Assembly (NCBI GenBank): GCA_964016885.1
Contig: OZ024741.1
Location: forward strand, 122,884,001 to 122,948,000
Length of the DNA stretch: 64,000 nt
Reading direction: 5' to 3'
Origin: Eledone cirrhosa
Taxonomy: Eukaryota
The first letter of the stretch is position 1. Each line of letters begins with the position of its first letter. Position numbers and translations under genes: made by a program. Below, in pieces: positions 2,232 through 38,615 of the stretch. The notes beneath the pieces were generated by a model. It made no database searches and was not told the origin of the DNA. It saw only the letters and a program-made list of their open reading frames with translations.

Positions 2232-5200
2232 AATTGGAGGGAATGAAGGTGAAGAGGTTGAGACACCTGAGGAAGCATCCGAAGCAGACAATGATCTGAA
2301 TGCTGAAATACATAACATCTGGAACGAAGATATGGCCATTAAGGAAATTAATGCTGACGGGCTAGGACAAGATTAGGTTGATATCCTGAATTTAGTGGTA
2401 GATGAAATGAATAATGATAGAGGAAAACCTATGAACCTAAGATTTGTAGACGGAAAAAAAGTTAAAAGAAACAACAGCTAAGGTTAACAAAGTCATCCGA
2501 TACCTTGAGGCGAGGAACCTTCACCAATGCAACAATATCCTCAAAGCAACAGCAAATGGGGTGAGGAAATTTCTTGGCATAAAAACGAGAGGAAACAACA
2601 CATTGGTGGAAGAAACGACTGAATGGTCAAATCAAGGAACTGAGAAAAGACATTGAAAAGCTTGAGTCCCTACTGAATGGGACATTACAAAACATAGACA
2701 CTAAAAATAGATTGGAAATAAAGTACAAAACTAGGGGGAAACAGCTAAATATTTTCATAGAGGAACTGAAGAAACGCATTGTAGCAAAAAGTGCAAAGAT
2801 TAGGCGGTACGAGAGCAGAGTCAGTCAGTATAGACAGAACCGCATGTTTGACAACAGCCAGAAGATGTTTGAACAGTATGAAGGGAAAGAAAGAGGCAAC
2901 GACTTGATCCCTGAGGCGGCCAGACTAAGACATTCTGGAGAGTAATATGAGAGCAGGATGCTGACATAATGGTCGGGCAGTGTGGATTGTGACAGTACAA
3001 AAGGAGATTAGTGAACAAGCACACCAACAAACTGATTTGAGTATCACAGTTGAAACTCTTAGAGGGCAGGCCAAAAAACTAACCAACTGCAAATCACCAG
3101 ATCCAGATTGTGTGCAGGGGTATTGGATTAAAGATATAACATCCCCCCACCCGAAACTGACAACCATGTTCAATGACTGCTTAATGTCGGGTGAAGTATC
3201 AGAGTGGTTGACAAAAGGTGCCACAGTTCTGGTAATGAAAGACCGAATCAAGGGTAATGATGTTACCAACTATAGACCTACCACATGTCTGTCCGTAATG
3301 TGGAAACTGTTGACAAGCATTATGTCTGAGGAAATCTACCATCACCTCCACATAAACAACTTGCTACCGGACGAACAGAAAGGATGCCGAAAGACGTCCC
3401 GTGGTACAAAAGACCAGCTACTTATTGATAAGATTGTAATGAGGAATTGCAAGAGAAGACACACTGGTCTTGCCATGGGATGGATAGATTACAAAAAGGC
3501 ATTCGACATGGTACCTCATTCTTGGATAACCAAAAGCCTAGAGATGTTCAAGGTGGCAGATAACATCAAGCAGTTGTTGAGCAAAAGTATGAAGTCCTGG
3601 AAAACAGAGTTAACATCAGCTGGAGAATCCTTGGGAGGCGTGAAGATCAAGAGAAGTATCTTCCACGGAGATAGTTTGTCCCTTCTGCTGTTTGCCCTTG
3701 CCCTGATACCCCTGACCATTATATTGCGAAAAGTGAGAGCAGGATACAAGTTGGGAAAAGGAGAACTTACCATCAACCACCTCCTCTTCATGGACGATCT
3801 TAAACTCTTTGGGGAGAGTGGGAAGGAGTTGGATGTACTTGTTGACACTCTCCGTATTTTCAGCAATGATATACGTATGGAATTTGGTATTAATAAGTGT
3901 GGAGTCCTTGTGATGAAGAGGGGTAAATTGAGCAGAAGCAACGGAATCCAGGTACCAACAGGTGAGATGTTAAAGGAAATTGACACTGAAGGATACAAAT
4001 ATTTAGGTGTTCTGGAGGCAGATGACAACAAGAATAAAAACATGAAGGAATTGATAAGATCTAAGTATATTAGGAGAGTAAGGAGCATATTAAAATCACA
4101 TCTAAATAGTAGGAATGCCATAAGTGCAGTGAATTCCCGAGCTGTGTCTATTATTAGGTACAGTGCGGGAATTCTGAAATGGAATGTTGCTGAAAAAAAA
4201 GAAATGGATATGAAGACTAGGAAGCTATTGACTATCTACAACATGTTCCACTAGAGGAGTTATGTCGATAGACTCTACTTAAAGAGATCTGAAGGTGGAA
4301 GAGGTCTTATCTGCACAGAGAACTCTGTTCAGATGGAGAAAATAACCTGCACAAATACGTGACTGACAGTAGGGAGCTAATACTCAAAATTGTACTGAAG
4401 GAGAAGACAATTGATCAGGGGATGTCCAAGGAGGAAATAACAACAAGGTGGAATATCAACCTTCATGAAAAATCCCTTCATATTACCTTCTTTAAGAAGA
4501 CTGAATTTAGAGATCCACAGACATGGAACTGGTTAAAAAGAGAAGACCTGAAAAAGGCTGCAGAAGGAATGTTAATGGCTGCGCAAGAGCAGGCACTCAG
4601 AATAGAGCGGGTGAAACACCATATTTACAAGGAGGAGGCTAGCCCACTGTGTAGGATCTGTGGAGAGAGAGAGAGGAGGCTGTGGCTTACATTGTATCCG
4701 AGTGTAAACACCTAGCTCAGGTTCACTATAAATGCTGGAGACGTGATATGATGGGCAGGGTGATCCACTGGTACCTATGCAAAGTAAACAATCAACCACA
4801 TTCTGAGAAGTGGTATGAGCATAAACCAGAGTCAGTGATAGAAAACGATCAGGTGCAGGTGCTATGGGATTTTAGGATACAGGCGGACAAGAAATTAGAA
4901 CACAATAGGCCTGACGTGGTGGTTTTGGACAATGAAAAAAGATCGCGTCTGATTGTAGATGTAGCCTGCCCATTTGACACCAGAGTGCAAGAGAAGGAGA
5001 GGGAGAAAATTAACCGATACCAGGACTTGAAGTGGGAGGTAAAAAAGGATTTGGAACTGCCATGAAGTCAAGGTCGTCCCTATTGTCATAGGCACACTAG
5101 GTACTATCTCAAAGAGTTTCCAAGGATGGTTAAAGAAGATTAGTCCAGCTGCGCTTTTGGGAAGACTTCAAAAGGCATGCTTATGTGAATAGCAAGAACC

Positions 5201-21985: not shown

Positions 21986-23346
21986 CACCTGGAGTTGCGA
22001 CCGATAGATAGTACTAGCAACTGGAAAGACCAATGGAAACATTGTTTCCTCGGTCCGATTTGACGAAAGTCGATCGACTCCTTTTATATATATATATATG
22101 CAAATATACACGCACAGAGTCACATACAAACACACACAAACGCACAGAAATACTGAAGCACGCAGTTTATATATATGAATTAGTGCCCTTTCTGCGTCTA
22201 TGATTGCTATTTGTTTTTCTTCCGTACTTTGTAATAATTACCAGCGTCGATATAGTCAACTAAATCCCATACAAAGAGTACCCCAGCATGGTCACAGTTT
22301 AATGATTGAAAGAACTAAAAAATAAATAAAGGAATAAACTAATCCTCACCTATCTCAACTATATCCATCCCATTGTGAGCAATAACTGAAGATAGTAAAC
22401 ACATTCTATTCTTTAGAGATTTGCAACTAAGGTTAGTTTGTTGACAAACCGGCAGAGTGTTCATGCAGGTAAATTTGATTTCAGTATATCTTGTGAGAAT
22501 GTTATCTGTCAGTGGACGCAATGGAAGTTGTAAACAAAAACAGCATAGTCAGACAATGTCATAATTGCATCATTTCTGAAGATGCCCTGGGCTAACTTAT
22601 TTCACACTAATTTTCACTAAACACTTCACATTTCTTTCCGTTTGCACAAATATCAACAATACTTTTTCACTGGAAACTTATATTTTCCTGTTTTCTTTAA
22701 TGAATGAGTTAAGGGGCGAATTTATGTCAGTATTTGAAGAGCATCACGTGTATATGAGTTGAACCATCAACGGTACCAAAGACGAGTGTTCAGGTTGCCC
22801 AAACAATGGAGCAGACAGCACACTAATTGAAAATGTAAGCGTCTGAGTATTTCACAGATACGTGCACTATTAATGTAAATCTCAACGAAACTCAACACGA
22901 TAGAGCATATGACAAGATTGGACCTGTAAAGGTCAGAGCTGAGTGGACTGAACTAATGGGAAATAAAATGTCATGCTCAAACATACAATGCGCTATCGAG
23001 CACAGAAATCGAACTCCTCGTTCTACGACCATATACATATATATATATATCTCCCCATGCATTGTGTTCTCTCATGATTGCCCAGTCCCAACGCCGCAGA
23101 CCCTCTCTCTTTCTCCACTTCTCTCTCTCTACCCACTTCTCTCTCAATATATATATATAAATATATGTATATGCACACATGTACACACGCGCGCGCGCAC
23201 AAACACACACACACACATATATATACACAGATATATATATATAAACGGAAAAAATTAAACGAAATTTCATTTCTCACTCTTAGTACGGCTGTTACTTAAA
23301 TGTATGTATACGTACATATATATATATGTATACAGACGTACAGTAG

Positions 23347-23382
<36 letters not shown>

Positions 23383-23523
23383 CATGCACACATACATATA
23401 TGTACGTATGGATTCACCGAACATTTATTATAATGCTCGGTGTGTTTGTAAACAAACATCCCGAATTAAGCCGTACAGTGTCTAGCAACCATCGTTGCTC
23501 ATTTGTTCAACACTGACAAAGGA

Positions 23524-23566
23524 ACGCTCTACTAGTTTCAAGCTTATTAGCTATCGTCAGCAACGT
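23524..23566 (-). ncRNA. Type I hammerhead motif (retrozyme family; first stem I pair mismatched)
   Basis: acguug-CUGACGA-uagcuaauaagcuu-GAAA-cuag-UA-gagcgu. Confidence 0.75.
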
Positions 23567-23721
23567 ATACCTTCCTGCTAGATGGTTGAACGTCTGAACA
23601 AATGAGCAACGATGGTCGCTAGACACTGTACGGCTTAATTCGGGATGTTTGTTTACAAACACACTGAGCATTATAATAAATGTTCGGTGAATCCATACAT
23701 ACATATATGTATGTGTGCATG

Positions 23722-23779
<58 letters not shown>

Positions 23780-24004
23780 CTACTGTACGTCTGTATACCT
23801 ATATGTATGTACGTATGCATACTTATATTTATGTAACAGCCGTACTAAGAGTGAGAAATAAAATTTCGTTTCATTTTTTCCGTTTATCGTTTTCGGTAGT
23901 CCGGCCGATTAACTCACTCGATATTCAAATTAGGCTGCTCAGCCGTTAATATGCATAAGGAAAGTATATACTTTCAGACGTTCAACCATCTTGCAGGAAG
24001 GTAT

Positions 24005-24047
24005 ACGTTGCTGACGATAGCTAATAAGCTTGAAACTAGTACAGCGT
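24005..24047 (+). ncRNA. Type I hammerhead motif (retrozyme family)
   Basis: acguug-CUGACGA-uagcu aaua agcuu-GAAA-cuag-UA-cagcgu. Confidence 0.85.
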
Positions 24048-24249
24048 TCCTTTGTCAGTGTTGAACAAATGAGCAACGATGGTTGCTAGACACGGTACGG
24101 CTTAATTCGGGATGTTTGTTTACAAACACACCGAGCATTATAATAAATGTTCGGTGAATCCATACGTACATATACGTATGTGTGCATGTATGTAATATTT
24201 ATATATACTACTGTGCGTCTGTATACATATGTATGTACGTATACATACT

Positions 24250-24280
<31 letters not shown>

Positions 24281-24864
24281 GCAGGCACACACTCAAGTAT
24301 ATGCACAGGTATATGCACTCGCACACGCACAGCTCTATATACAAACTTTTTTTTCCTTTCAAGGAAACTCTTTCTCTCGACTTCTTTTCGTGAATCCGTA
24401 ATACCATTGAGAGAATGTGGGATGGGGTATCAGCTGGAAAGAATGTGCCATTGATTAAGCATATATGTTTTATGGTTGATTTCCAGCTATATGGGAAAGC
24501 AGGAATGAGGTTAATTCATTGGTGCTGAATATTTGGCAACATAGCGTGAACATAGAAATGAGTTTTTTGTATAAATAAGTGTGCCACAGTGTCACTTGAA
24601 ATGAGCCGGAGTGTTGAATTTAATACGATTAAATTTCAAACGGGAGATAGAATCGGCGAACCAGATGCAGCCGTCTACTAGAACTTGAAAGCATTTTGTG
24701 CTACGAATTGAAAAACAAAAAAAAATAACAAAAGAGATATATCAGAAAAGGGATACTTTGTTGATCAAAGGTAAATTGAATCCGACGAATTTATTCTTGT
24801 TGATGATAATATGGGCTGTATCAGCTATCAGGTGAAAGCGTTTTATTCATATAGTGGACTCAGC

Positions 24865-25080
24865 GCCGTAGATTGGCAGTATCGGTAGAGAGTAGGACAC
24901 CATGCTTTGCAACGTAGAGTTACGCCCCTTTACAGTCTGAGTTCAAATCCCGCTAAGGTTAACTTTGCCTTTCATCCTTACGGGGTCGATAAAATAAAGC
25001 ACCAGTAACATACAGGGGTCGATTTAATCGATTTTCCCCTCCACCAAATTACTAGCGTTGTGCCTATACTAGAAATCATT
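24865..25080 (+). mobile_element. tRNA-derived SINE (central domain resembles the MetaSINE domain)
   Basis: A-box-like tggcagtatcgg, B-box gagttcaaatccc, conserved actttgcctttcatccttacggggtcgataaaa and tail ttgtgcct..tagaaa. Many copies in the window. Confidence 0.85.
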
Positions 25081-25084
25081 CATA

Positions 25085-25380
25085 CAGTGGACTAAAGAAG
25101 AACCGCAAAAATTTGATAGGCAGACAAGAAAAGTATTGGGCAAAGATGTGGTCTGGGCCCAAAGGTAGACATTTTAAGGTTGTACACCAACAGTGTTTTG
25201 CTTCCTTCAAAAACGACGTAGGCCAGTATTCTCCAGATTTACGCCTCTGATGGGAGCCCGGAAATGTTGACCCTTACTGATTTTCTTTTAAAATAAGATG
25301 GGTAGGGAATATAATCGTCCCTCTGACATGTTACCATTGAGAGATTGATGGTCGGGGATTCACTCTTAAAGAGTTCCCAC
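25085..25380 (-). mobile_element. Possible decayed Tx1-type ORF1 fragment
   Basis: YPSYFKRKSVRVNISGLP resembles VPSYCGQKIVRVKLTHVP in the ORF1 at 13555-15687. Confidence 0.35.
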
Positions 25381-26640
25381 GTATGTGTATGTATGTATGC
25401 ATGCGTGTGTGTATGTGAGTGTGTGGAGTCCATCAATGTTACATTTATAGGAATGTAGCATTTGTCGATTTATCTGGTATAGCCTGATCAACATTCAATT
25501 GTATATGTATAGGTATGGATGTGTGTGTGTGTGCGAGCCTTTGTGTGGTGGTGAGTGTATATATGTGTGTTTGTGCATGTGTGTCTTTAGGTGATATATC
25601 GACCAGGAAAAACATATCCAAATATTGCTTTAGGAAATAAGTTACTTGTTAGATATATAATTAAATCCTATAATAACAATGGATACAACATGGCTGAATG
25701 TATAAAATGTTGGTTCCGTAGTCATTAAGTCACAGGTTGGATCTCATTGCATGAAATCGTTAACAAACGTTATTTTCGTTAGTGTCAGATCGGCTCATAC
25801 TTTGTGAGTGAGATTGGGTAGACAGATACTGTTTGAAAGCCCATCACTTGCACATTATTTTCATGGGCAGGCTGATCAAACAACTGGAAAAACTGGAATA
25901 ATTTGAACAATTGGAATACTGATCATCGAAACCGACGGAAATCCATCGAATCGAATATTAAGAAACTCACTATCAATGCCACCGCCGCCCAGTTCTAAAC
26001 AGAAATACTGATTCTTAAATATTTGAATATCTGTTTATCTATTTATCGGTTTTCCAGAAATAATTTAAGAGGATTCTGATTCGAAATTAATAATGAATAA
26101 ATAAATATACATAATAAATAAATCAAATAGAATAAATTAAAAAGCAAAGAAGTAAAAAAGAAAATGAAAAAGAAATTAAAACAACATAACAAGCCTTCCT
26201 CATAATCCCTTAAAAATCGTTTGACGTAATACAAATCCATTCAGCGGAGATGGAGGAGAACAGTTTCATTATGTTGATACTGATGTTGCTTATGATGGTT
26301 TTATCGTTGTAATTATGCAGATTGGAAATGACAGATAGTTCTATATAATGATATAATATGCTTGCATTTGCATAAGATTGGTTTAAAGATTGAGAAATAC
26401 TAGATTTACATTGAGAAATGATGATGAATTATACGCTTGGCTTTATAGAAATGAAAGAGATATGTAGGCTACACTGTAAGAAATAGTAAACACATAATCC
26501 CTTATTCATTTTATTGTTTAAGGATAATATATACACACATATAGTCACATCATACAAACGTATAGATACAAGCATTTGCAATGATATACCATGCACACAC
26601 ACACAACACACAGACGTATGTTAAAATGTATTATTACTAA

Positions 26641-26782
26641 TTGGCAGTTACGTCCCTTTACGATCTGAGTTCAAATCCCGCCGAAGTTGACTTTGCCTTT
26701 CATCCTTACGGGGTCGATAAAAGAAAGTACCACTAATGCACTGGGTAATTGCTGGCCTTGTGCCTAAAGTAGAAACAATTAT

Positions 26783-26784
<2 letters not shown>
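26641..26784 (+). mobile_element. SINE, same family as 24865-25080 (internally deleted)
   Basis: gagttcaaatcccgccgaagttgactttgcctttcatccttacggggtcgat...ggccttgtgcctaaagtagaaacaatt. Confidence 0.85.
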
Positions 26785-26828
<44 letters not shown>

Positions 26829-26891
26829 CGGGAGTATATGCATGGATGGATAGATGCATGTGCACACATACATACACACATACATACAAAG

Positions 26892-26970
<79 letters not shown>

Positions 26971-26974
<4 letters not shown>

Positions 26975-27222
26975 TATGTATACGCAAATACATATATGTA
27001 TACAGACGTACAGTAGTATGTATATATATACATACATGCACACATATATACATGTACGTATAGATTTACCGGGCAACTATTATAATGCTTGGTTTGTTTG
27101 TAAACAAACAAACATCCCGAATTAAGCCGTACAGTGTCTAGCAACCATCGTTGCCCTTTTGTTCAACACTGTTAAAGGAACGATGTACTAGTTTCAAGCT
27201 TATAAGCTATCGTCAGCACCGT
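26971..27222 (-). mobile_element. Partial copy of the retrozyme-like family with hammerhead at 27180-27222
   Basis: Homologous to 24005-24250. acggug-CUGACGA-uagcuuauaagcuu-GAAA-cuag-UA-caucgu. The 3' end abuts (TA)n. Confidence 0.85.
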
Positions 27223-29730
<2,508 letters not shown>

Positions 29731-31224: not shown

Positions 31225-31611
31225 TCACTACCACCAGGGTAAAGTAGGTCAGTTGGACTTGAACATTCTGATAAAAACAACTATAACAGGCTGACGTGAT
31301 TCTTAGGAATGTCTATAGACTGGGAAGTGGGATGATAAATAACCAATGGCGTGGGCGCGTATCCTCTGATGCTGAAATTCGTTTGTTCTAGCCCATATGA
31401 TTCCAGTTGCTCTGAGGACTAACAACACACCCAGGAGCTGGACATACCGCTTAATTGACAGAGTGGAACGCAATGCAACACCAGGTCTACCTGTTTTTTC
31501 TACATTCATTCGTACTGCCGGAATAGGTCACAGCCAATAATAGCTGTCACTGAAATATATATAGCAGAGAATTATAATAAACGAAGCCAACTTTAACATA
31601 TTTGACTTACT

Positions 31612-31620
<9 letters not shown>
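31225..31620 (+). mobile_element. Solo PLE pseudo-LTR copy (homologous to 29200-29600) with decayed hammerhead at 31515-31567
   Basis: Direct similarity. The core is mutated to CGGAAUA. Ends in (TA)n. Confidence 0.8.
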
Positions 31621-31652
<32 letters not shown>

Positions 31653-31756
31653 TATATGTATAGTATGCTTAATTAAAAACATTTTGAAGACCTTGCGCTA
31701 TTATTTTAAAGTAGTGACAATGTCACTTATTTCTTTTTTCAACAAACGAAGGGAGA

Positions 31757-31802
31757 TAAGCTGACAGATCTGTTTCACACTGTTGGTGATCATCAGAGCT
31801 TA
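31757..31802 (-). ncRNA. Type I hammerhead ribozyme motif (GUC site)
   Basis: uaagcu-CUGAUGA-ucac caaca gugu-GAAA-cagaucug-UC-agcuua, enclosed by a further 13-bp helix (ttttcaacaaacg/cgtttgttgaaaa). Confidence 0.88.
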
Positions 31803-31927
31803 CCACTCGCCGACGTTTGTTGAAAATTACATAGTCTGGATTCTTATAGAATTCCAGTAATAATCAGGAACTGATTATACAGAGCGATTGCTAGTCCACC
31901 AATAAGTGAAAATTAGGATTGGTGCTC

Positions 31928-32028
31928 TGAAATAGCGATGTATACATGAATATGTATATATATTTGGCAAGCATACAGTATATTGCCAAATAAACTGTAC
32001 ATATATTCATGTATACATCGCTATTTCA
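31928..32028. repeat. Imperfect palindrome
   Basis: tgaaatagcgatgtatacatgaatat ... atattcatgtatacatcgctatttca, with inner atttggcaa/ttgccaaat. Confidence 0.9.
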
Positions 32029-35529: not shown

Positions 35530-38000
35530 ATGTATGCATGTCTGAATGCATTCATGTGTAGATATGGATGTTATTGTATGTGTGGATGTGTATGTTTTGA
35601 GTTGTATGTGTGCATGTGTATATGCTTTGTATCTGTATATGCAGTTATTACATGCAACATTTTTGGAATGTTTTACATATTTTTACTGTTCCATTAATGG
35701 ATTGTACTTGTAATTTCCTAACTAGTTGTCTTCTTTCTGTTCCTGTGAAGCCTAGCTTCTCAAGATTTGTATTAAGGCAGTTACTAACATACCCCAGTGC
35801 CCCAATAATCACAGGCAGAAATCTGAAGGTGTAATCAGGGTGGACTATCTGCAGATTTCTTATCAGTTCTGCATAAATATTCTCCTTTTCGCTAATCTTT
35901 GATATTATATTGGCATCTGCTGGGCAGTTAACTTCTACTACTGTGCATGCTTTCTTTTCCCTGTCGCATATCATAATATCTGGTCTGTTATGCCTGCATT
36001 TTATTGGGGTTTTTACTGGAACATTCCACCAGTACTCTTTCATATTATATGGATGTCTTCCACATTGCTGTAGCTTTTAATGTGTTTATTATCGGGGCTA
36101 TCTTTTCTACGGATTGCATTGTACAGTGTTTTGGCCACTACATCATGCCTCATAGGTAGATAGTACCGTGATGTCATCTTTGGACAGCTGCTGATGACAT
36201 GGGTGACATCTTTGATGTTAATGCTTCAGAGTCTGCACTTGTCATCATAGCTTGGTTGTTTACCTGCCTCCCCATCTCTTTTGTGTATCAGGTATTCGTG
36301 TTAATTTCCTGTTCCTTGATTGGAAAAGCGTATCCTCCAAAGTGGGAGTCAATATAGCGGTTGTTGGTCCAAGTTAGACTACTTTCCTTATATATATTAC
36401 TCTCACTCGAGAGCTTCCTGGCAACATATCCATGCATGATTTTTTGCTGATAAGTATGCAGTTTTCCATCCATGGATTCACTGCGATACTGCTGAGCGAC
36501 TTCCCTGGGTGTGAGTTTTTGATTATCACACAGGGAATATCTCTCGAGAAGTTCCTTCCCAATTCTCATGATCTTATCTGTTTCATGCAGATAGACTTGC
36601 TCGAGTGACGTGCTCTCCTACGCTTCGAGATTCGTAGATGTTGTCGGAGGGTTATGATGCGACATTCAAATGCTGTCTGGACTGATGTTAGGCCTCTGCC
36701 TTCCTGCTTACGTTTCAAGTAAAGGCGGTCTATGTCACTGTTGATGTGGAATTTTCCGGTGTTGTTTAGTATTTTTCGAGTTCTAACATCAACGGCTTGG
36801 ATTTCGTCTATCATCCAATTGAGTATTCCAAGCGTTGGTGTTAGGACAGGCACAGCAAACACATTGTGAGCCACGGTTTTGTTTGCGGAGAGTTCCGATG
36901 ACCAGATCTTTCTTAATCGAGTGTAGTATTCCCTGGTTACGCGTTAGTTATTACAAATACCATTATAGGATATGTTCTCATCTATCCCCAGGTATCTGTA
37001 GCAGTCCTCATCAGATATCGGAGAAACAGGTAGGCCATTGATGACAATGTTGCTGGTATTCTCCGCTTTGCAGTCATGAGCATTTATTTTGGCCAAAATC
37101 TATTCCTACATCCTTTGAGAACGTTGTAACCAGGTCAAGATTTTTCTTCATCCCATCCATGTTCTTGGCATAGAGTTTCAGATCATCCACAAAGAAATTA
37201 TGGGTTAGGTTCGTATTTCTGTCCTCCTGTGAGGCAATGATGTATCCTTCACATTTCTTGAGCAGAAAGGACAAGGGGTTTAATGACAGGATGAATAATA
37301 TCACAGAGAGACTGACTCCCTGAAATATACCCCTGCGATATCTGATTTTATCAGTGAAAATAGAGTCCTCCTTCTCTGTCTTTAACTTTAGGATAGTAGC
37401 CCAAGAAGAAGACAGCTTCTCTATGGCTCTGAAAATAATTGTTTCTACTTTAGGCACAAGGCCATCAATTACCCAGTACATTACTGGTACTTTATTTTAT
37501 CGACCCCGTAAGGATGAAAGGCAAAGTTAACCTCGGCGGAATTTGAATCTCGGTGGGATTTGAACTCGTAACTATGCTAGAAAGCATGGCGTCCAACCCT
37601 CTACCGATACTGCCAATTCACAATGTCTGGGACTTTAGCAAGTTGGAGGGCCTCTATCATCCAAGAGTGGGGAACAGAATCGAAACCTTTCCTGTAGTCC
37701 AGCCAGACTATAGCCATATTCCTCCTAAGTTGTCGCACCTCCGACATCGCAGTTTTGTTGATTAGGAGTTGTTCAGCACATCCCCAAACGCCTTTCTTTC
37801 CAGCTGCTTGTTCATCTGTGATGATATTATTATTTTCACAGTGATCTTGGAGGAATAGGTTCTGTCAGGCTGTATATATCTTATACATCAGGTTCTGGCA
37901 TGCAATGGGTCGGTAGTTTTTTGGCAAGTGGGTCTCTTTGTTCTTGGGGGCCAGTAATGTTTGTGCTAATGTCAACCATTCTGGTATAAGTACTCTCCTG
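35530..38000 (-). mobile_element. Decayed R4/Dong-clade retrotransposon, copy D (third family), interrupted by a SINE
   Basis: Minus-strand pieces IPEWL..KNYRPIACQNLMYK..EQAAGKKG..WLDYRKGFDSVPHSW (37625-38000), GIFQGVSLS..FVDDLKLY and RPDIMICD..VVEVNCPAD..LPVIIGALG. Confidence 0.88.
37435..37625 (-). mobile_element. SINE inserted into Dong copy D
   Basis: Reverse complement of the 24865/26641 SINE family. It splits the RT reading frame. Confidence 0.88.
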
Positions 38001-38615
38001 TAGATTCTATTTTTATTTCTATGTTCTCTAATTTACCCTTGTGCTCTCTAATTTACCCTTGTGTTCTATTATAAATAGAACACAGGAGTAAATTAGAGAA
38101 CATAGAAATAAAAATAGAATCTACACACAGAAAAGACGCAATGTTTAGACAAATTACAGAGGCAATAAACATAAAAGAATTACAACCAAAATTAAATAGA
38201 ATATATAAGTGGAACAGCAACATCACAACTTACAATTAAGGACAAAATGAAAACACACACACACATAGAACAAACAACCAACCAGTAACATGTAAATAAA
38301 CAAATAAATAAATGAACATAAACACACACAGACACCCGGATGTGGCGCGTGCGCAGACTGAGCACACAACACACACAGAAACAAAATGGCGTAGGACAGA
38401 ACAAAGGAGAGGCACAGAAACAAAGAAAGGAATCCCCAGTCACTGAAGAGGTCACAGAGTGTGTGACGAAAGAACTATGACAATATATAAACAACTATCT
38501 GGTTGTGGAACCAACCAACCAACCAACCAGAAATTTATAAATTTATTATAATAAATTGAAGTGAAAGCAACTGGTGCGTGTGTTTCTTATTGGCAACACG
38601 ACCCTCCCAAAGTAT

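What the first reader, a model, noticed from the sequence alone, without database searches (positions are those of the whole stretch)
23243..27222. Diverged relatives of the array unit show ribozyme covariation and shared termini
Seen: copies at 23243-24250 and 26971-27222 are clearly diverged from the array, yet they keep the catalytic core. Changes fall at the free core position (CUGAUGA to CUGACGA), in loop 2 (AACA to AAUA/UAUA) and as a compensatory G.U to U.G swap in stem I (cggug/caucg versus cguug/cagcg). Three insertions end at nearly the same point of the unit (..atacatactt, at 24250, 26971 and ~48000) joined to (TA)n. Both inverted 5' pieces (23243 and 43639) also end at one homologous site (..ttttttc(c/a)(g/a)(t/c)tt|atat). 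Inference: the fold is under selection, and the family is a real mobile element with defined priming sites at (TA)n rather than a locally amplified satellite.
Basis: partly seen in the sequence, partly recalled or inferred. Interest (0 to 1): 0.78.

Follow-up and report, generated by a model that had tools for sequence, protein, structure and literature searches.

The report
Ribozyme-bearing tandem retroelement spread by Penelope machinery
The diverged copies belong to a dispersed family of about 470-base tandem repeats carrying a hammerhead-ribozyme motif, inserted at many chromosomal sites with the same two fixed ends in TA repeats as an intact Penelope-like retrotransposon family (copies 99-100% alike) of the same genome, so it is likely a known kind of parasite of those elements (a "retrozyme") rather than a new system.

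Summary
Observation confirmed. 23244-24250 and 26971-27222 are members of an older subfamily (B) of the 472-nt array unit (A, 43637-48005). They keep the hammerhead core. The G.U to U.G swap in stem I is real.

Across the genome, both subfamilies occur at many loci on at least 12 contigs each. Nearly every complete insertion is two head-to-head arms with a private inner junction. One outer end is "short" (..CATACTT) and the other is "tailed" (61-70 nt further, ..TTTTC(AAC/CG)TT), and both usually abut (TA)n. There are 40 short/tailed pairs, 2 doubtful short/short and 0 tailed/tailed among 72 insertion clusters.

A Penelope-like element family with an intact RT plus GIY-YIG frame in the same genome shows the identical signature (13 of 13 complete pairs, 64-nt tail). 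This matches published in-vitro Penelope biochemistry: two internal RT start sites, both strands extended, AT-rich target.

Verdict: a non-LTR retrozyme, likely mobilised in trans by Penelope-like elements. It is a new member of a known kind.

Support for ribozyme selection is moderate. Catalysis and RNA circles are untested. No sequence-matched autonomous partner was found.

This scan reported Penelope-type TA insertions of tandem arrays before, on other genomes.

The parts
23244..23595 (-). Subfamily-B arm, about 0.75 unit, inverted. Its outer (left) end is the tailed terminus ..TTTTTTCCGTT(T) next to (TA)n. It holds the hammerhead domain at 23501-23590 (core intact, C1.1 changed to G).
   Evidence: inverted repeats I1/I2; R1 106.8 bits.
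23596..24250 (+). Subfamily-B arm, 1.4 units, head-to-head with the previous arm. The junction is at about unit position 45 | 131, with TGAAC microhomology. The outer end is the short terminus ..TATACATACTT|(AT)n. Intact hammerhead domain at 23981-24070.
   Evidence: D6, spacing 467; 112.9 bits.
26971..27228 (-). Single 5'-truncated arm of a B-like variant (CUGACGA, loop UAUA, stem I as in A). The short terminus at 26971 abuts an about 80-nt (TA)n. The 5' break lies at the start of the hammerhead and abuts an unrelated repeat.
   Evidence: (60.5 bits).
43637..43856 (-). Subfamily-A inverted arm with an internal deletion (unit 397-476, 1-43, then 330-431). Its outer end is the tailed terminus ..TTTTTTTTCAACTT|(AT)n.
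43856..48005 (+). Subfamily-A array, 8.8 units of 468-484 nt. The outer end is the short terminus ..CATACTTACATTTA|(TA)n. Seven of 9 hammerhead copies keep the core. Two carry a core change (GAAA to CAAA in the unit at 44380-44469, GAAA to GAAG in the unit at 45328-45417).
23209..23243 (.). Short (CA)n/(TA)n tract flanking the tailed end of the B insertion.
24251..24277 (.). (TA)14 flanking the short end of the B insertion.
26786..26970 (.). Interrupted (TA)n flanking the short end of the truncated copy.
43450..43636 (.). (AT)95 flanking the tailed end of the A insertion.
48006..48030 (.). (TA)n flanking the short end of the A array.

Best explanation
These copies are members of a dispersed, non-coding family of about 470-nt tandem units with a hammerhead motif (a non-LTR 'retrozyme') that is likely copied into (TA)n tracts in trans by the reverse transcriptase/GIY-YIG endonuclease of Penelope-like elements (PLEs).

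Shown:
- Each insertion consists of two head-to-head arms of 0.2 to 14 units.
- The inner (5') ends differ from locus to locus.
- The outer (3') ends are always one 'short' site and one 'tailed' site, 61-70 nt further along the unit. Both usually abut (TA)n.
- A PLE family with an intact frame (copies 99-100% alike) in the same genome has the same architecture, with a 64-nt tail.

Inferred, from the in-vitro PLE work of Frangieh et al. 2024:
- A PLE ribonucleoprotein cuts both strands in AT-rich DNA.
- Each 3'-OH primes cDNA synthesis at one of two internal start sites on a multimeric or circular retrozyme RNA.
- Synthesis runs through several units and stops at variable points.
- The two cDNAs are joined with 0-7 nt of microhomology or a short filler.

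Predicted, not shown:
- The hammerhead has a 1-bp helix III capped by the palindromic loop CUAG and a U.U at the base of helix II. This is the dimer-dependent type described in amphibian retrozymes.
- It would cut multimeric transcripts to unit length, for circularisation by a host ligase.
For: Dispersal. The A unit gives 459 matches from 40 scored of 1743 candidate places, and the B unit 91 from 40 of 2599. The listed rows lie on 12 contigs each.

Architecture.
- A: 43 clusters in 39 fetched loci plus the window give 25 short/tailed, 2 nominal short/short, 0 tailed/tailed and 11 with one 5'-truncated or undetermined end.
- B: 29 clusters in 28 loci give 15 short/tailed, 0 short/short and 0 tailed/tailed.
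- Junction positions are private to each locus: 214/153, 175/177, 435/47, 184/184 and so on. The one exception is a local duplicate, L071/L091.

TA flanks. 51 of 67 (A) and 30 of 44 (B) defined ends have them, against 1 of 13 and 2 of 9 5'-type ends and 3.75% background.

PLEs in this genome.
- GIY-YIG: 150 of 150 scored places exceed the Pfam cut-off, out of 10597 candidates.
- One copy has a 938-aa open frame with RVT_1 at 466-610 and GIY-YIG at 851-935.
- All 40 scored 3' ends of this family (P1) are 99-100% identical.
- Its ends are either ..CTTTTTCTTT|(AT)n or the same plus a 64-nt tail before (AT)n.
- 3 of 3 and 10 of 10 complete pairs are short/tailed.
- In tandem context the tail runs on into the next unit.

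Tail lengths are 70 (A), 61 (B) and 64 (P1) nt.

Within-array units are identical in L063 and in both arms of L069, and 99.95% alike in L094, against 99.2% between loci. This fits arrays made at insertion from one template.

Literature.
- Frangieh et al. 2024 (PMC11167929, main text read): two adjacent internal RT start sites make the tail, both strands are cleaved and extended, and cleavage prefers AT-rich DNA.
- Craig et al. 2021 (PMC8557442, passages read): inverted 5'-truncated copy, tail at one end, (TA)n bias.
- Cervera & de la Pena 2020 (PMC7229834, passages read): retrozyme definition; a 1-bp helix III with palindromic tetraloop and a U.U at helix II in axolotl ribozymes that work as dimers.

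Hammerhead. The core is kept in A, B and a third variant. For covariation. The domain is 87% identical between A and B against 75-76% elsewhere. The unit-length RNA folds with z = -7.8, and stem I plus two outer helices bring its ends together.
Against: - No sequence homology was found between the retrozyme termini and the P1 3' end or tail (local alignment score within shuffles).
- P1 and the other 43 PLE loci examined carry no related hammerhead of their own. The hits there are retrozyme insertions. The specific autonomous partner is therefore unidentified.
- Rfam does not call the motif: 0 hits at gathering in the window, and the best is Hammerhead_HH9 at 18.5 bits against a cut-off of 52.
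- Within the family only one base pair covaries.
- Two of 9 array units carry core changes, so resident copies decay freely.
- Published PLE tails are 30-40 bp, here 61-70.
- In vitro, no strand preference between the two start sites was reported, whereas here the pairing is strictly one of each.
- In at least four clear single-arm copies (L072, L076, L081, L095) the 5' junction is not in TA. So it is not proven that (TA)n is a pre-existing target rather than partly made at insertion.
- No empty site or target-site duplication could be read.
Confidence: 0.8

Rival explanations
1. A SINE-like element mobilised by a LINE (not a PLE) through ordinary target-primed reverse transcription. The inverted arm would arise by twin priming and (TA)n would be a LINE-type microsatellite tail.
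For: - Fixed 3' ends, variable 5' truncation and 5' inversions are also LINE hallmarks (established knowledge of L1 twin priming, recalled).
- Single-arm copies have TA only at the 3' end.
Against: - Twin priming gives a variable second priming point. Here the second end is fixed and always the 'other' site (40 short/tailed against 0 tailed/tailed).
- The offset of 61-70 nt equals that of the resident PLE family, which shows the same rule in 13 of 13 complete pairs.
- No LINE with matching ends was looked for, so this is not formally excluded.
Confidence: 0.07
2. A DNA-level element: a foldback or TIR transposon, a Helitron-type rolling-circle element, or re-integrating extrachromosomal circles of satellite DNA, with TA as the target.
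For: - Inverted arms made of tandem repeats resemble foldback elements.
- Insertion is in TA/AT-rich DNA.
Against: - Every locus has a different inner junction, arm length and unit number. Cut-and-paste or Helitron copying would preserve these.
- The two ends are not inverted repeats of each other. They share only AAGT and are offset by 61-70 nt.
- There is no coding capacity: the longest stop-free frame in the array is 74 aa.
Confidence: 0.06
3. An ordinary satellite, amplified locally and scattered by segmental duplication. The hammerhead-like motif would be a chance or relic sequence.
For: - Tandem organisation.
- Rfam does not reach threshold.
- One pair of loci (L071/L091) is a local duplicate.
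Against: - There are 72 insertion clusters, on 12 contigs per subfamily, with private junctions but shared termini.
- The motif keeps all core nucleotides in three subfamilies, and related domains with compensated helices occur in other families.
Confidence: 0.02

Closest known systems
Non-LTR retrozymes of animals (Cervera & de la Pena 2020, PMC7229834; passages read)
   Same: - Tandem, non-coding, AT-rich repeats of a few hundred bases, each with a type-I hammerhead.
- Dispersed, in dimers to multimers.
- No LTR, PBS or PPT.
- Highly self-paired unit RNA.
- The ribozyme combines the two weak features described for axolotl motifs: a 1-bp helix III with palindromic tetraloop, and a U.U at the base of helix II.
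   Different: - The unit is 467-476 nt, slightly above the quoted 150-450 bp.
- Expression, cleavage and circles are not shown here.
- The paper does not describe the two fixed termini, the head-to-head arms or (TA)n flanks.
Penelope-like elements and their insertion signature (Craig et al. 2021, PMC8557442, passages read; Frangieh et al. 2024, PMC11167929, main text read)
   Same: - 5' truncation, partial tandems, an adjacent inverted 5'-truncated copy.
- A tail at one end only, explained by two internal RT start sites.
- Both strands extended.
- AT-rich/(TA)n target.
- The same signature is seen in a resident PLE family with an intact frame.
   Different: - The element encodes nothing.
- Its tail is 61-70 nt against the published 30-40.
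- No sequence similarity to the resident PLE examined.
- Genomic pairs are strictly one short plus one tailed end, which the in-vitro work did not report.
[quoted passage not shown]
   Same: The same hypothesis of PLE dependence.
   Different: - Their evidence is co-distribution plus pLTR homology in Xenopus.
- They picture local amplification into tandems after insertion.
- Here the evidence is the insertion signature itself, plus arrays whose units, and in one locus both arms, are identical. That points to arrays made at insertion.
- Supplements of this preprint could not be seen.
Dimer-dependent hammerheads of amphibian satellite 2 / axolotl HHR_Amex1 and Amex2
   Same: - Helix III of one pair capped by a palindromic tetraloop. 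Here A-CUAG-U, so ACUAGU can pair with a second copy.
- U.U at the base of helix II.
   Different: - Sequence unrelated as far as compared.
- Loop 1-loop 2 contacts not assessed.
- Activity untested.
tRNA-bearing Penelope-type tandem arrays noted earlier in this scan (e1-7810660, e1-7881736; other genomes)
   Same: Ready-made tandem arrays with an inverted head, inserted in TA microsatellites.
   Different: Those carry a tRNA module and no ribozyme. This family carries a hammerhead.

Membership tests
Hammerhead ribozyme, type I | Conserved core: C3 U4 G5 A6 N7 G8 A9, G12 A13 A14, A15.1-U16.1, and a non-G at position 17 before the cut. | tested here: met
   CUGAUGA or CUGACGA, GAAA, A..U and A17 are present in A, B and the third variant. 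Seven of 9 array units are intact.
Hammerhead ribozyme, type I | Three helices around the core, with helix I open. | tested here: inconclusive
   Helix I is 6-7 bp plus two outer helices. Helix II is 4 bp with a U.U at its base. Helix III is only 1 bp with the palindromic loop CUAG. This is viable only as a dimer or with help, as published for axolotl motifs.
Hammerhead ribozyme, type I | Reaches the curated Rfam score. | tested here: not met
   0 hits at gathering in the window. The best is Hammerhead_HH9 at 18.5 bits against 52.
Hammerhead ribozyme, type I | Compensatory changes in the helices. | tested here: inconclusive
   Within the family one pair covaries. Across families of this genome 21 of 24 pairs change on both sides, but the alignment is model-fitted and holds few clades. 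R-scape was not available.
Hammerhead ribozyme, type I | Self-cleavage at the predicted site. | not testable with these tools
   No RNA holder was listed and no raw RNA reads were available.
Non-LTR retrozyme | Short tandem repeats (150-450 bp), each with a type-I hammerhead, in multiple dispersed copies. | tested here: met
   Period 467-476 nt, marginally above the quoted range. Dispersed on 12 contigs per subfamily.
Non-LTR retrozyme | Low GC, no coding capacity, no LTR/PBS/PPT. | tested here: met
   GC is 0.355 (A) and 0.366 (B). The longest stop-free frame is 74 aa in the array and 90 aa in the B copy. No terminal direct repeats other than the units themselves. PBS and PPT were not searched for specifically.
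Non-LTR retrozyme | Expressed as unit-length linear and circular RNA. | not testable with these tools
   No RNA data.
PLE-mobilised (non-autonomous Penelope-type) element | 5' truncation, partial tandems, and an adjacent inverted 5'-truncated copy. | tested here: met
PLE-mobilised (non-autonomous Penelope-type) element | A tail extension at one end only (two RT start sites). | tested here: met
   40 short/tailed, 2 doubtful short/short and 0 tailed/tailed. The tail is 61-70 nt.
PLE-mobilised (non-autonomous Penelope-type) element | AT-rich or microsatellite target. | tested here: met
   81 of 111 defined ends are flanked by a strict (TA)5+ run, against 3.75% background. Pre-existence of the tract is not proven.
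PLE-mobilised (non-autonomous Penelope-type) element | A co-resident autonomous PLE (RT plus GIY-YIG in one frame) with the same signature. | tested here: met
PLE-mobilised (non-autonomous Penelope-type) element | Sequence similarity to the partner's 3' end or pLTR. | tested here: not met
   Not met for family P1. Other PLE families of the genome (more than 10,000 GIY-YIG candidates) were sampled at only 44 loci.

The most novel reading that the evidence does not exclude
The strict one-short-plus-one-tailed rule holds in 53 of 55 complete pairs, counting the retrozyme and the autonomous PLE together, and the two exceptions are doubtful. Both arms are identical in some loci. Together these would mean that one dimeric Penelope ribonucleoprotein sits on an about 60-70-nt stretch of a single RNA and fires its two reverse transcriptases from the two edges of that footprint, one for each DNA strand. 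On this reading the 'tail' is a molecular ruler of the complex. Retrozyme arrays would then be natural records of rolling-circle copying of a ribozyme-made RNA circle by that complex.
Probability: 0.3. Interest if true: 0.65.

Novelty: new member of a known kind. Interest (0 to 1): 0.45.

Why it matters
The partnership between animal retrozymes and Penelope-like elements has so far rested on co-distribution and on pLTR homology in frogs.

Here the insertion scars themselves carry the Penelope signature: head-to-head arms, two start sites 61-70 nt apart, and TA tracts. The same genome holds a Penelope family with an intact frame that shows the same scars. This is independent, mechanistic support for the partnership.

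The data also suggest that the arrays are laid down ready-made rather than grown locally afterwards. The strict pairing of the two end types is a testable constraint on the still poorly understood Penelope integration reaction.

For annotation, such arrays should be filed as mobile elements and not as satellites.

Tried and rejected
- Rfam E-value scan of 23000-48500: swamped by TA-rich microRNA look-alikes and uninformative.
- Sequencing runs: 20 holders, no RNA holder listed.
- Contigs of X4-X7: these gave only short fragments. X4 and X7 held both A- and B-type variants, X5 one contig, X6 none laid. They say nothing on expression or empty sites.
- Raw Hi-C reads X23/X24: 0 reads laid, so no test.
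- Search for a hammerhead or unit homology in 44 PLE loci: the only strong hits are retrozyme insertions lying in the (TA)n beside PLE 3' ends (L124, L140, L141, L101).
- Local alignment of the P1 3' end plus tail against the A and B termini: not above shuffles. The shared TTTCATTTT is not significant.
- RNAcofold of two domains: it did not return the classical double hammerhead as the minimum-energy form. The dimer idea rests on the self-complementary ACUAGU and on the literature.
- Family D: too palindromic to dissect its termini with simple BLAST chaining. Left as a side note.
- Target-site duplications: unreadable because both flanks are (TA)n.
- Earlier-findings look-ups by place and by sequence: nothing relevant.
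- ESM Atlas on the PLE frame: only generic GIY-YIG/HTH_animal/RVT_1 clusters, no clade assignment.

Full report
**What is in the window**

Tandem Repeats Finder reports a 472-nt array at 43852-48005 (8.8 copies, 98% matches). BLAST with one unit shows that the array is preceded by an inverted piece of the same unit at 43637-43856.

Diverged copies lie at three places:
- 23257-23593 (minus strand, 80%);
- 23711-24251 (plus strand, 76-83%);
- 26971-27222 (minus strand, 75%).

The stretch 23244-24250 is itself a pair of head-to-head arms. A minus arm of about 0.75 unit meets a plus arm of 1.4 units at about 23595/23596. The window copy of this diverged type matches other loci at 93-95%. It therefore belongs to a separate, older subfamily (B), while array-type units (A) are about 99% alike between loci outside their TA-rich part.

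**The motif**

Every unit carries ACGGUG-CUGAUGA-U-AGCU-AACA-AGCU-U-GAAA-CUAG-UA|CAUCGU. Read as a type-I hammerhead it has:
- helix I of 6-7 bp, extended by two outer helices (CUGGCA/UGUCAG and UUCAAC/GUUGAA);
- helix II of 4 bp with a U.U at its base;
- helix III of a single A-U pair capped by the palindromic loop CUAG.

The copy at 27157-27234 has CUGACGA, loop UAUA and the A-type stem.

Rfam does not call the motif. There are 0 hits at gathering in the window, and the best is Hammerhead_HH9 at 18.5 bits against a cut-off of 52. The two weak features, a 1-bp helix III with a palindromic tetraloop and a U.U under helix II, are the ones described for the axolotl retrozyme ribozymes, which cleave poorly as monomers and act as dimers (Cervera & de la Pena 2020, PMC7229834, passages read).

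**Is the fold constrained?**

- Among 59 distinct 90-nt domains from A, B and a third variant, one pair (2.3-1.3) covaries: UG 29, GU 23, AU 4, GC 1, UA 1, unpaired 1. All other pairs vary on one side or by loss of pairing. Most of this is a single subfamily split.
- Between A and B the domain is 87% identical, against 75-76% for the rest of the unit. Of the 11 differences, 8 fall in columns I classed as unconstrained, 2 are the compensated pair and 1 opens the last pair of helix I (hypergeometric p about 0.009, classification made post hoc).
- A covariance model built from these sequences (R1) finds further, much more distant hammerhead domains in the same genome. These are window 31733-31824 (family D), L101 (a D variant) and L142 (family E). 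They keep the core and the outer-helix layout but have different helices I and II.
- On the model-fitted alignment, 21 of 24 pairs change on both sides and 90.1% of cells pair, against 72.6% in shuffles and 26-40% when partners are slid. The alignment leans towards the structure and the clades are few.

I read all this as moderate support, not proof. Two of the 9 array units have core substitutions, as expected if inserted copies decay freely.

**The ends, genome-wide**

The A unit finds 459 matches from 40 scored of 1743 candidate places. The B unit finds 91 from 40 of 2599. The listed rows lie on 12 contigs each. I fetched 39 A loci with flanks and used 28 B loci.

Almost every complete insertion is two arms placed head to head. 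The inner ends differ from locus to locus (unit positions 214/153, 175/177, 435/47, 319/73, 184/184 and so on). They meet with 0-7 nt of overlap or a filler of up to 44 nt. The only shared junction is a local duplicate, L071/L091.

The outer ends fall at just two places of the unit:
- a short end: A ..ACGTATACATACATACTT, with up to 7-10 further unit bases; B ..GTACGTATACATACTT;
- a tailed end 61-70 nt further on: A ..CGTTTTCATTTTTTTCAACTT; B ..CATTTTTTCCGTTT.

Counts:

| Subfamily | Clusters | Short/tailed | Short/short | Tailed/tailed | One defined end plus a 5'-truncated or undetermined end | Other |
|---|---|---|---|---|---|---|
| A | 43 | 25 | 2 nominal | 0 | 11 | 4, plus 1 cut by the locus edge |
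| B | 29 | 15 | 0 | 0 | 9 | 5 |

Both nominal short/short cases in A have an end inside the unit's own TA-rich tract and are doubtful.

A strict (TA)5+ run starts within 8 nt of 51 of 67 (A) and 30 of 44 (B) defined ends. The figures are 1 of 13 and 2 of 9 for 5'-type ends, and 3.75% for window positions at large.

The window's three short ends (24250, 26971, 48005) and two tailed ends (23244, 43639) are ordinary members of this pattern.

**The machinery**

Published descriptions of Penelope-like elements list exactly these traits: strong 5' truncation, partial tandems, an inverted 5'-truncated copy next to the 5' end, a 'tail' extension at one end only, and a bias for (TA)n (Craig et al. 2021, PMC8557442, passages read).

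In vitro, a purified Penelope protein:
- cleaves and extends both DNA strands;
- prefers AT-rich DNA;
- starts reverse transcription at two adjacent internal sites of its RNA that are not homologous to the target.

The tail is the sequence between those two sites. Hammerhead cleavage was not needed for insertion and was protein-assisted (Frangieh et al. 2024, PMC11167929, main text read).

This genome is rich in such elements. All 150 scored GIY-YIG places exceed the Pfam cut-off, out of 10597 candidates. [quoted passage not shown] All 40 scored 3' ends of P1 are 99-100% identical.

P1 ends either at ..CATC(C/T)CTTTTTCTTT|(AT)n or at the same point plus a 64-nt tail before (AT)n. Where copies are in tandem, the tail simply continues into the next unit. 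Complete head-to-head pairs are short/tailed in 3 of 3 and 10 of 10 cases.

The non-coding family and the autonomous family thus share architecture, pairing rule, tail length and flank.

**What is not shown**

- P1's 3' end and tail show no significant similarity to the retrozyme termini.
- Neither P1 nor the other 43 PLE loci sampled have a related hammerhead of their own. The hits there are retrozyme copies lying in the TA tract beside PLE 3' ends (L124, L140, L141, L101). That shows shared targeting, not descent. The actual partner family is therefore unknown.
- No RNA data could be had. Transcription, cleavage and circles are predictions.
- No empty site or target duplication could be read. 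In four clear single-arm copies the 5' junction is not in TA. The TA tract as a pre-existing target is therefore the likely, published, but here unproven reading.

**Template**

Arms run through the predicted cleavage site (unit position about 112) many times, and the ends lie elsewhere (about 360 and 431). The template was therefore an uncleaved multimer or a religated circle, not a cleaved linear monomer.

Outside the TA-rich part, units are identical to one another in L063 and in both arms of L069, and 99.95% alike in L094, while units of different loci are 99.2% alike. The window array (99.1%) and L092 (98.9%) are as heterogeneous as the family.

Identical units in both arms fit copying of one unit-length circle, or of a homogeneous multimer, at the time of insertion. 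This disagrees with growth of arrays only by later unequal exchange, the picture drawn in the 2026 preprint of Li et al. (sections 14 and 16 read).

The unit-length RNA, cut at the predicted site, folds far better than shuffles (-155 against -110 kcal/mol, z = -7.8). Helix I and the outer helices bring its two ends together.

**Comparison and verdict**

By structure the family is a non-LTR retrozyme. By its scars it is a non-autonomous passenger of Penelope-like elements, an idea already in print (Cervera & de la Pena 2020; Craig et al. 2021; Li et al. 2026). This scan also met it on other genomes for tRNA-bearing arrays.

It is therefore a new member of a known kind. What it adds:
- direct scar-level evidence for the partnership;
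- a tail about twice the published length;
- a strict one-of-each pairing of the two start sites, in both the passenger and an autonomous element. The in-vitro study did not see this, and it constrains models of the integration complex.

Searches for prior description of retrozyme termini or TA targeting found none beyond the papers cited. Supplements of the preprint could not be seen.

Noticed in passing
window 31660-32010 (minus strand), hammerhead domain 31733-31824: A second ribozyme-bearing family (D). Tandem copies elsewhere are spaced about 317 nt, and there are 3163 candidate places. Helix III is palindromic (CAGAUCUG). It shares the UUCAAC/GUUGAA outer helix and the CAACA loop with the 472-nt family. 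It ends at the (TA)n of 31617-31662.
   Followed up: partly
L142 about 3200-3590; L101 2441-2890: Two further hammerhead elements lie between (TA)n tracts, both with inverted arms. One is family E, with a 3-bp helix III. The other is a D variant whose outer helices and helix II differ from D by compensatory changes.
   Followed up: partly
L141 3090-3676, L124 2685-3264, L140 7679-9901, L161 and L163: Retrozyme copies sit in the TA tract directly beside PLE 3' ends or beside copies of family D. This suggests repeated hits on the same microsatellites.
   Followed up: partly
window 27223-27330 (+) and 31340-31452 (-): A repeat of about 110 nt (starting GGGTGTGTTGTTAGTCC) occurs as an inverted pair 4.1 kb apart. 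The left copy abuts the 5' break of the truncated retrozyme copy. It may be the ends of another mobile element.
   Followed up: no
window 24918-25017 and 26646-26745: Two tRNA-like, SINE-type repeats, 86% identical (D8).
   Followed up: no
unit positions 432-476 and 1-60 (for example window 45233-45337): This is the most conserved block between subfamilies A and B (88-93%). It lies just 3' of the tailed start site and holds two small hairpins (GGCUGCUCAGCC and GAAAGUAUAUACUUUC). It is a candidate protein-binding or promoter element.
   Followed up: no
window 37998-38126: A long, near-perfect hairpin that scores 57.8 bits on a plant microRNA model, below its cut-off of 96.2. It is probably a palindromic repeat.
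   Followed up: no
runs X1-X24: Near-identical words of the unit are held by runs labelled with 17 coded organisms from 15 studies. Yet raw Hi-C reads labelled like one of them held none in 1.9 billion letters each. The labels may not name the DNA's true source.
   Followed up: no
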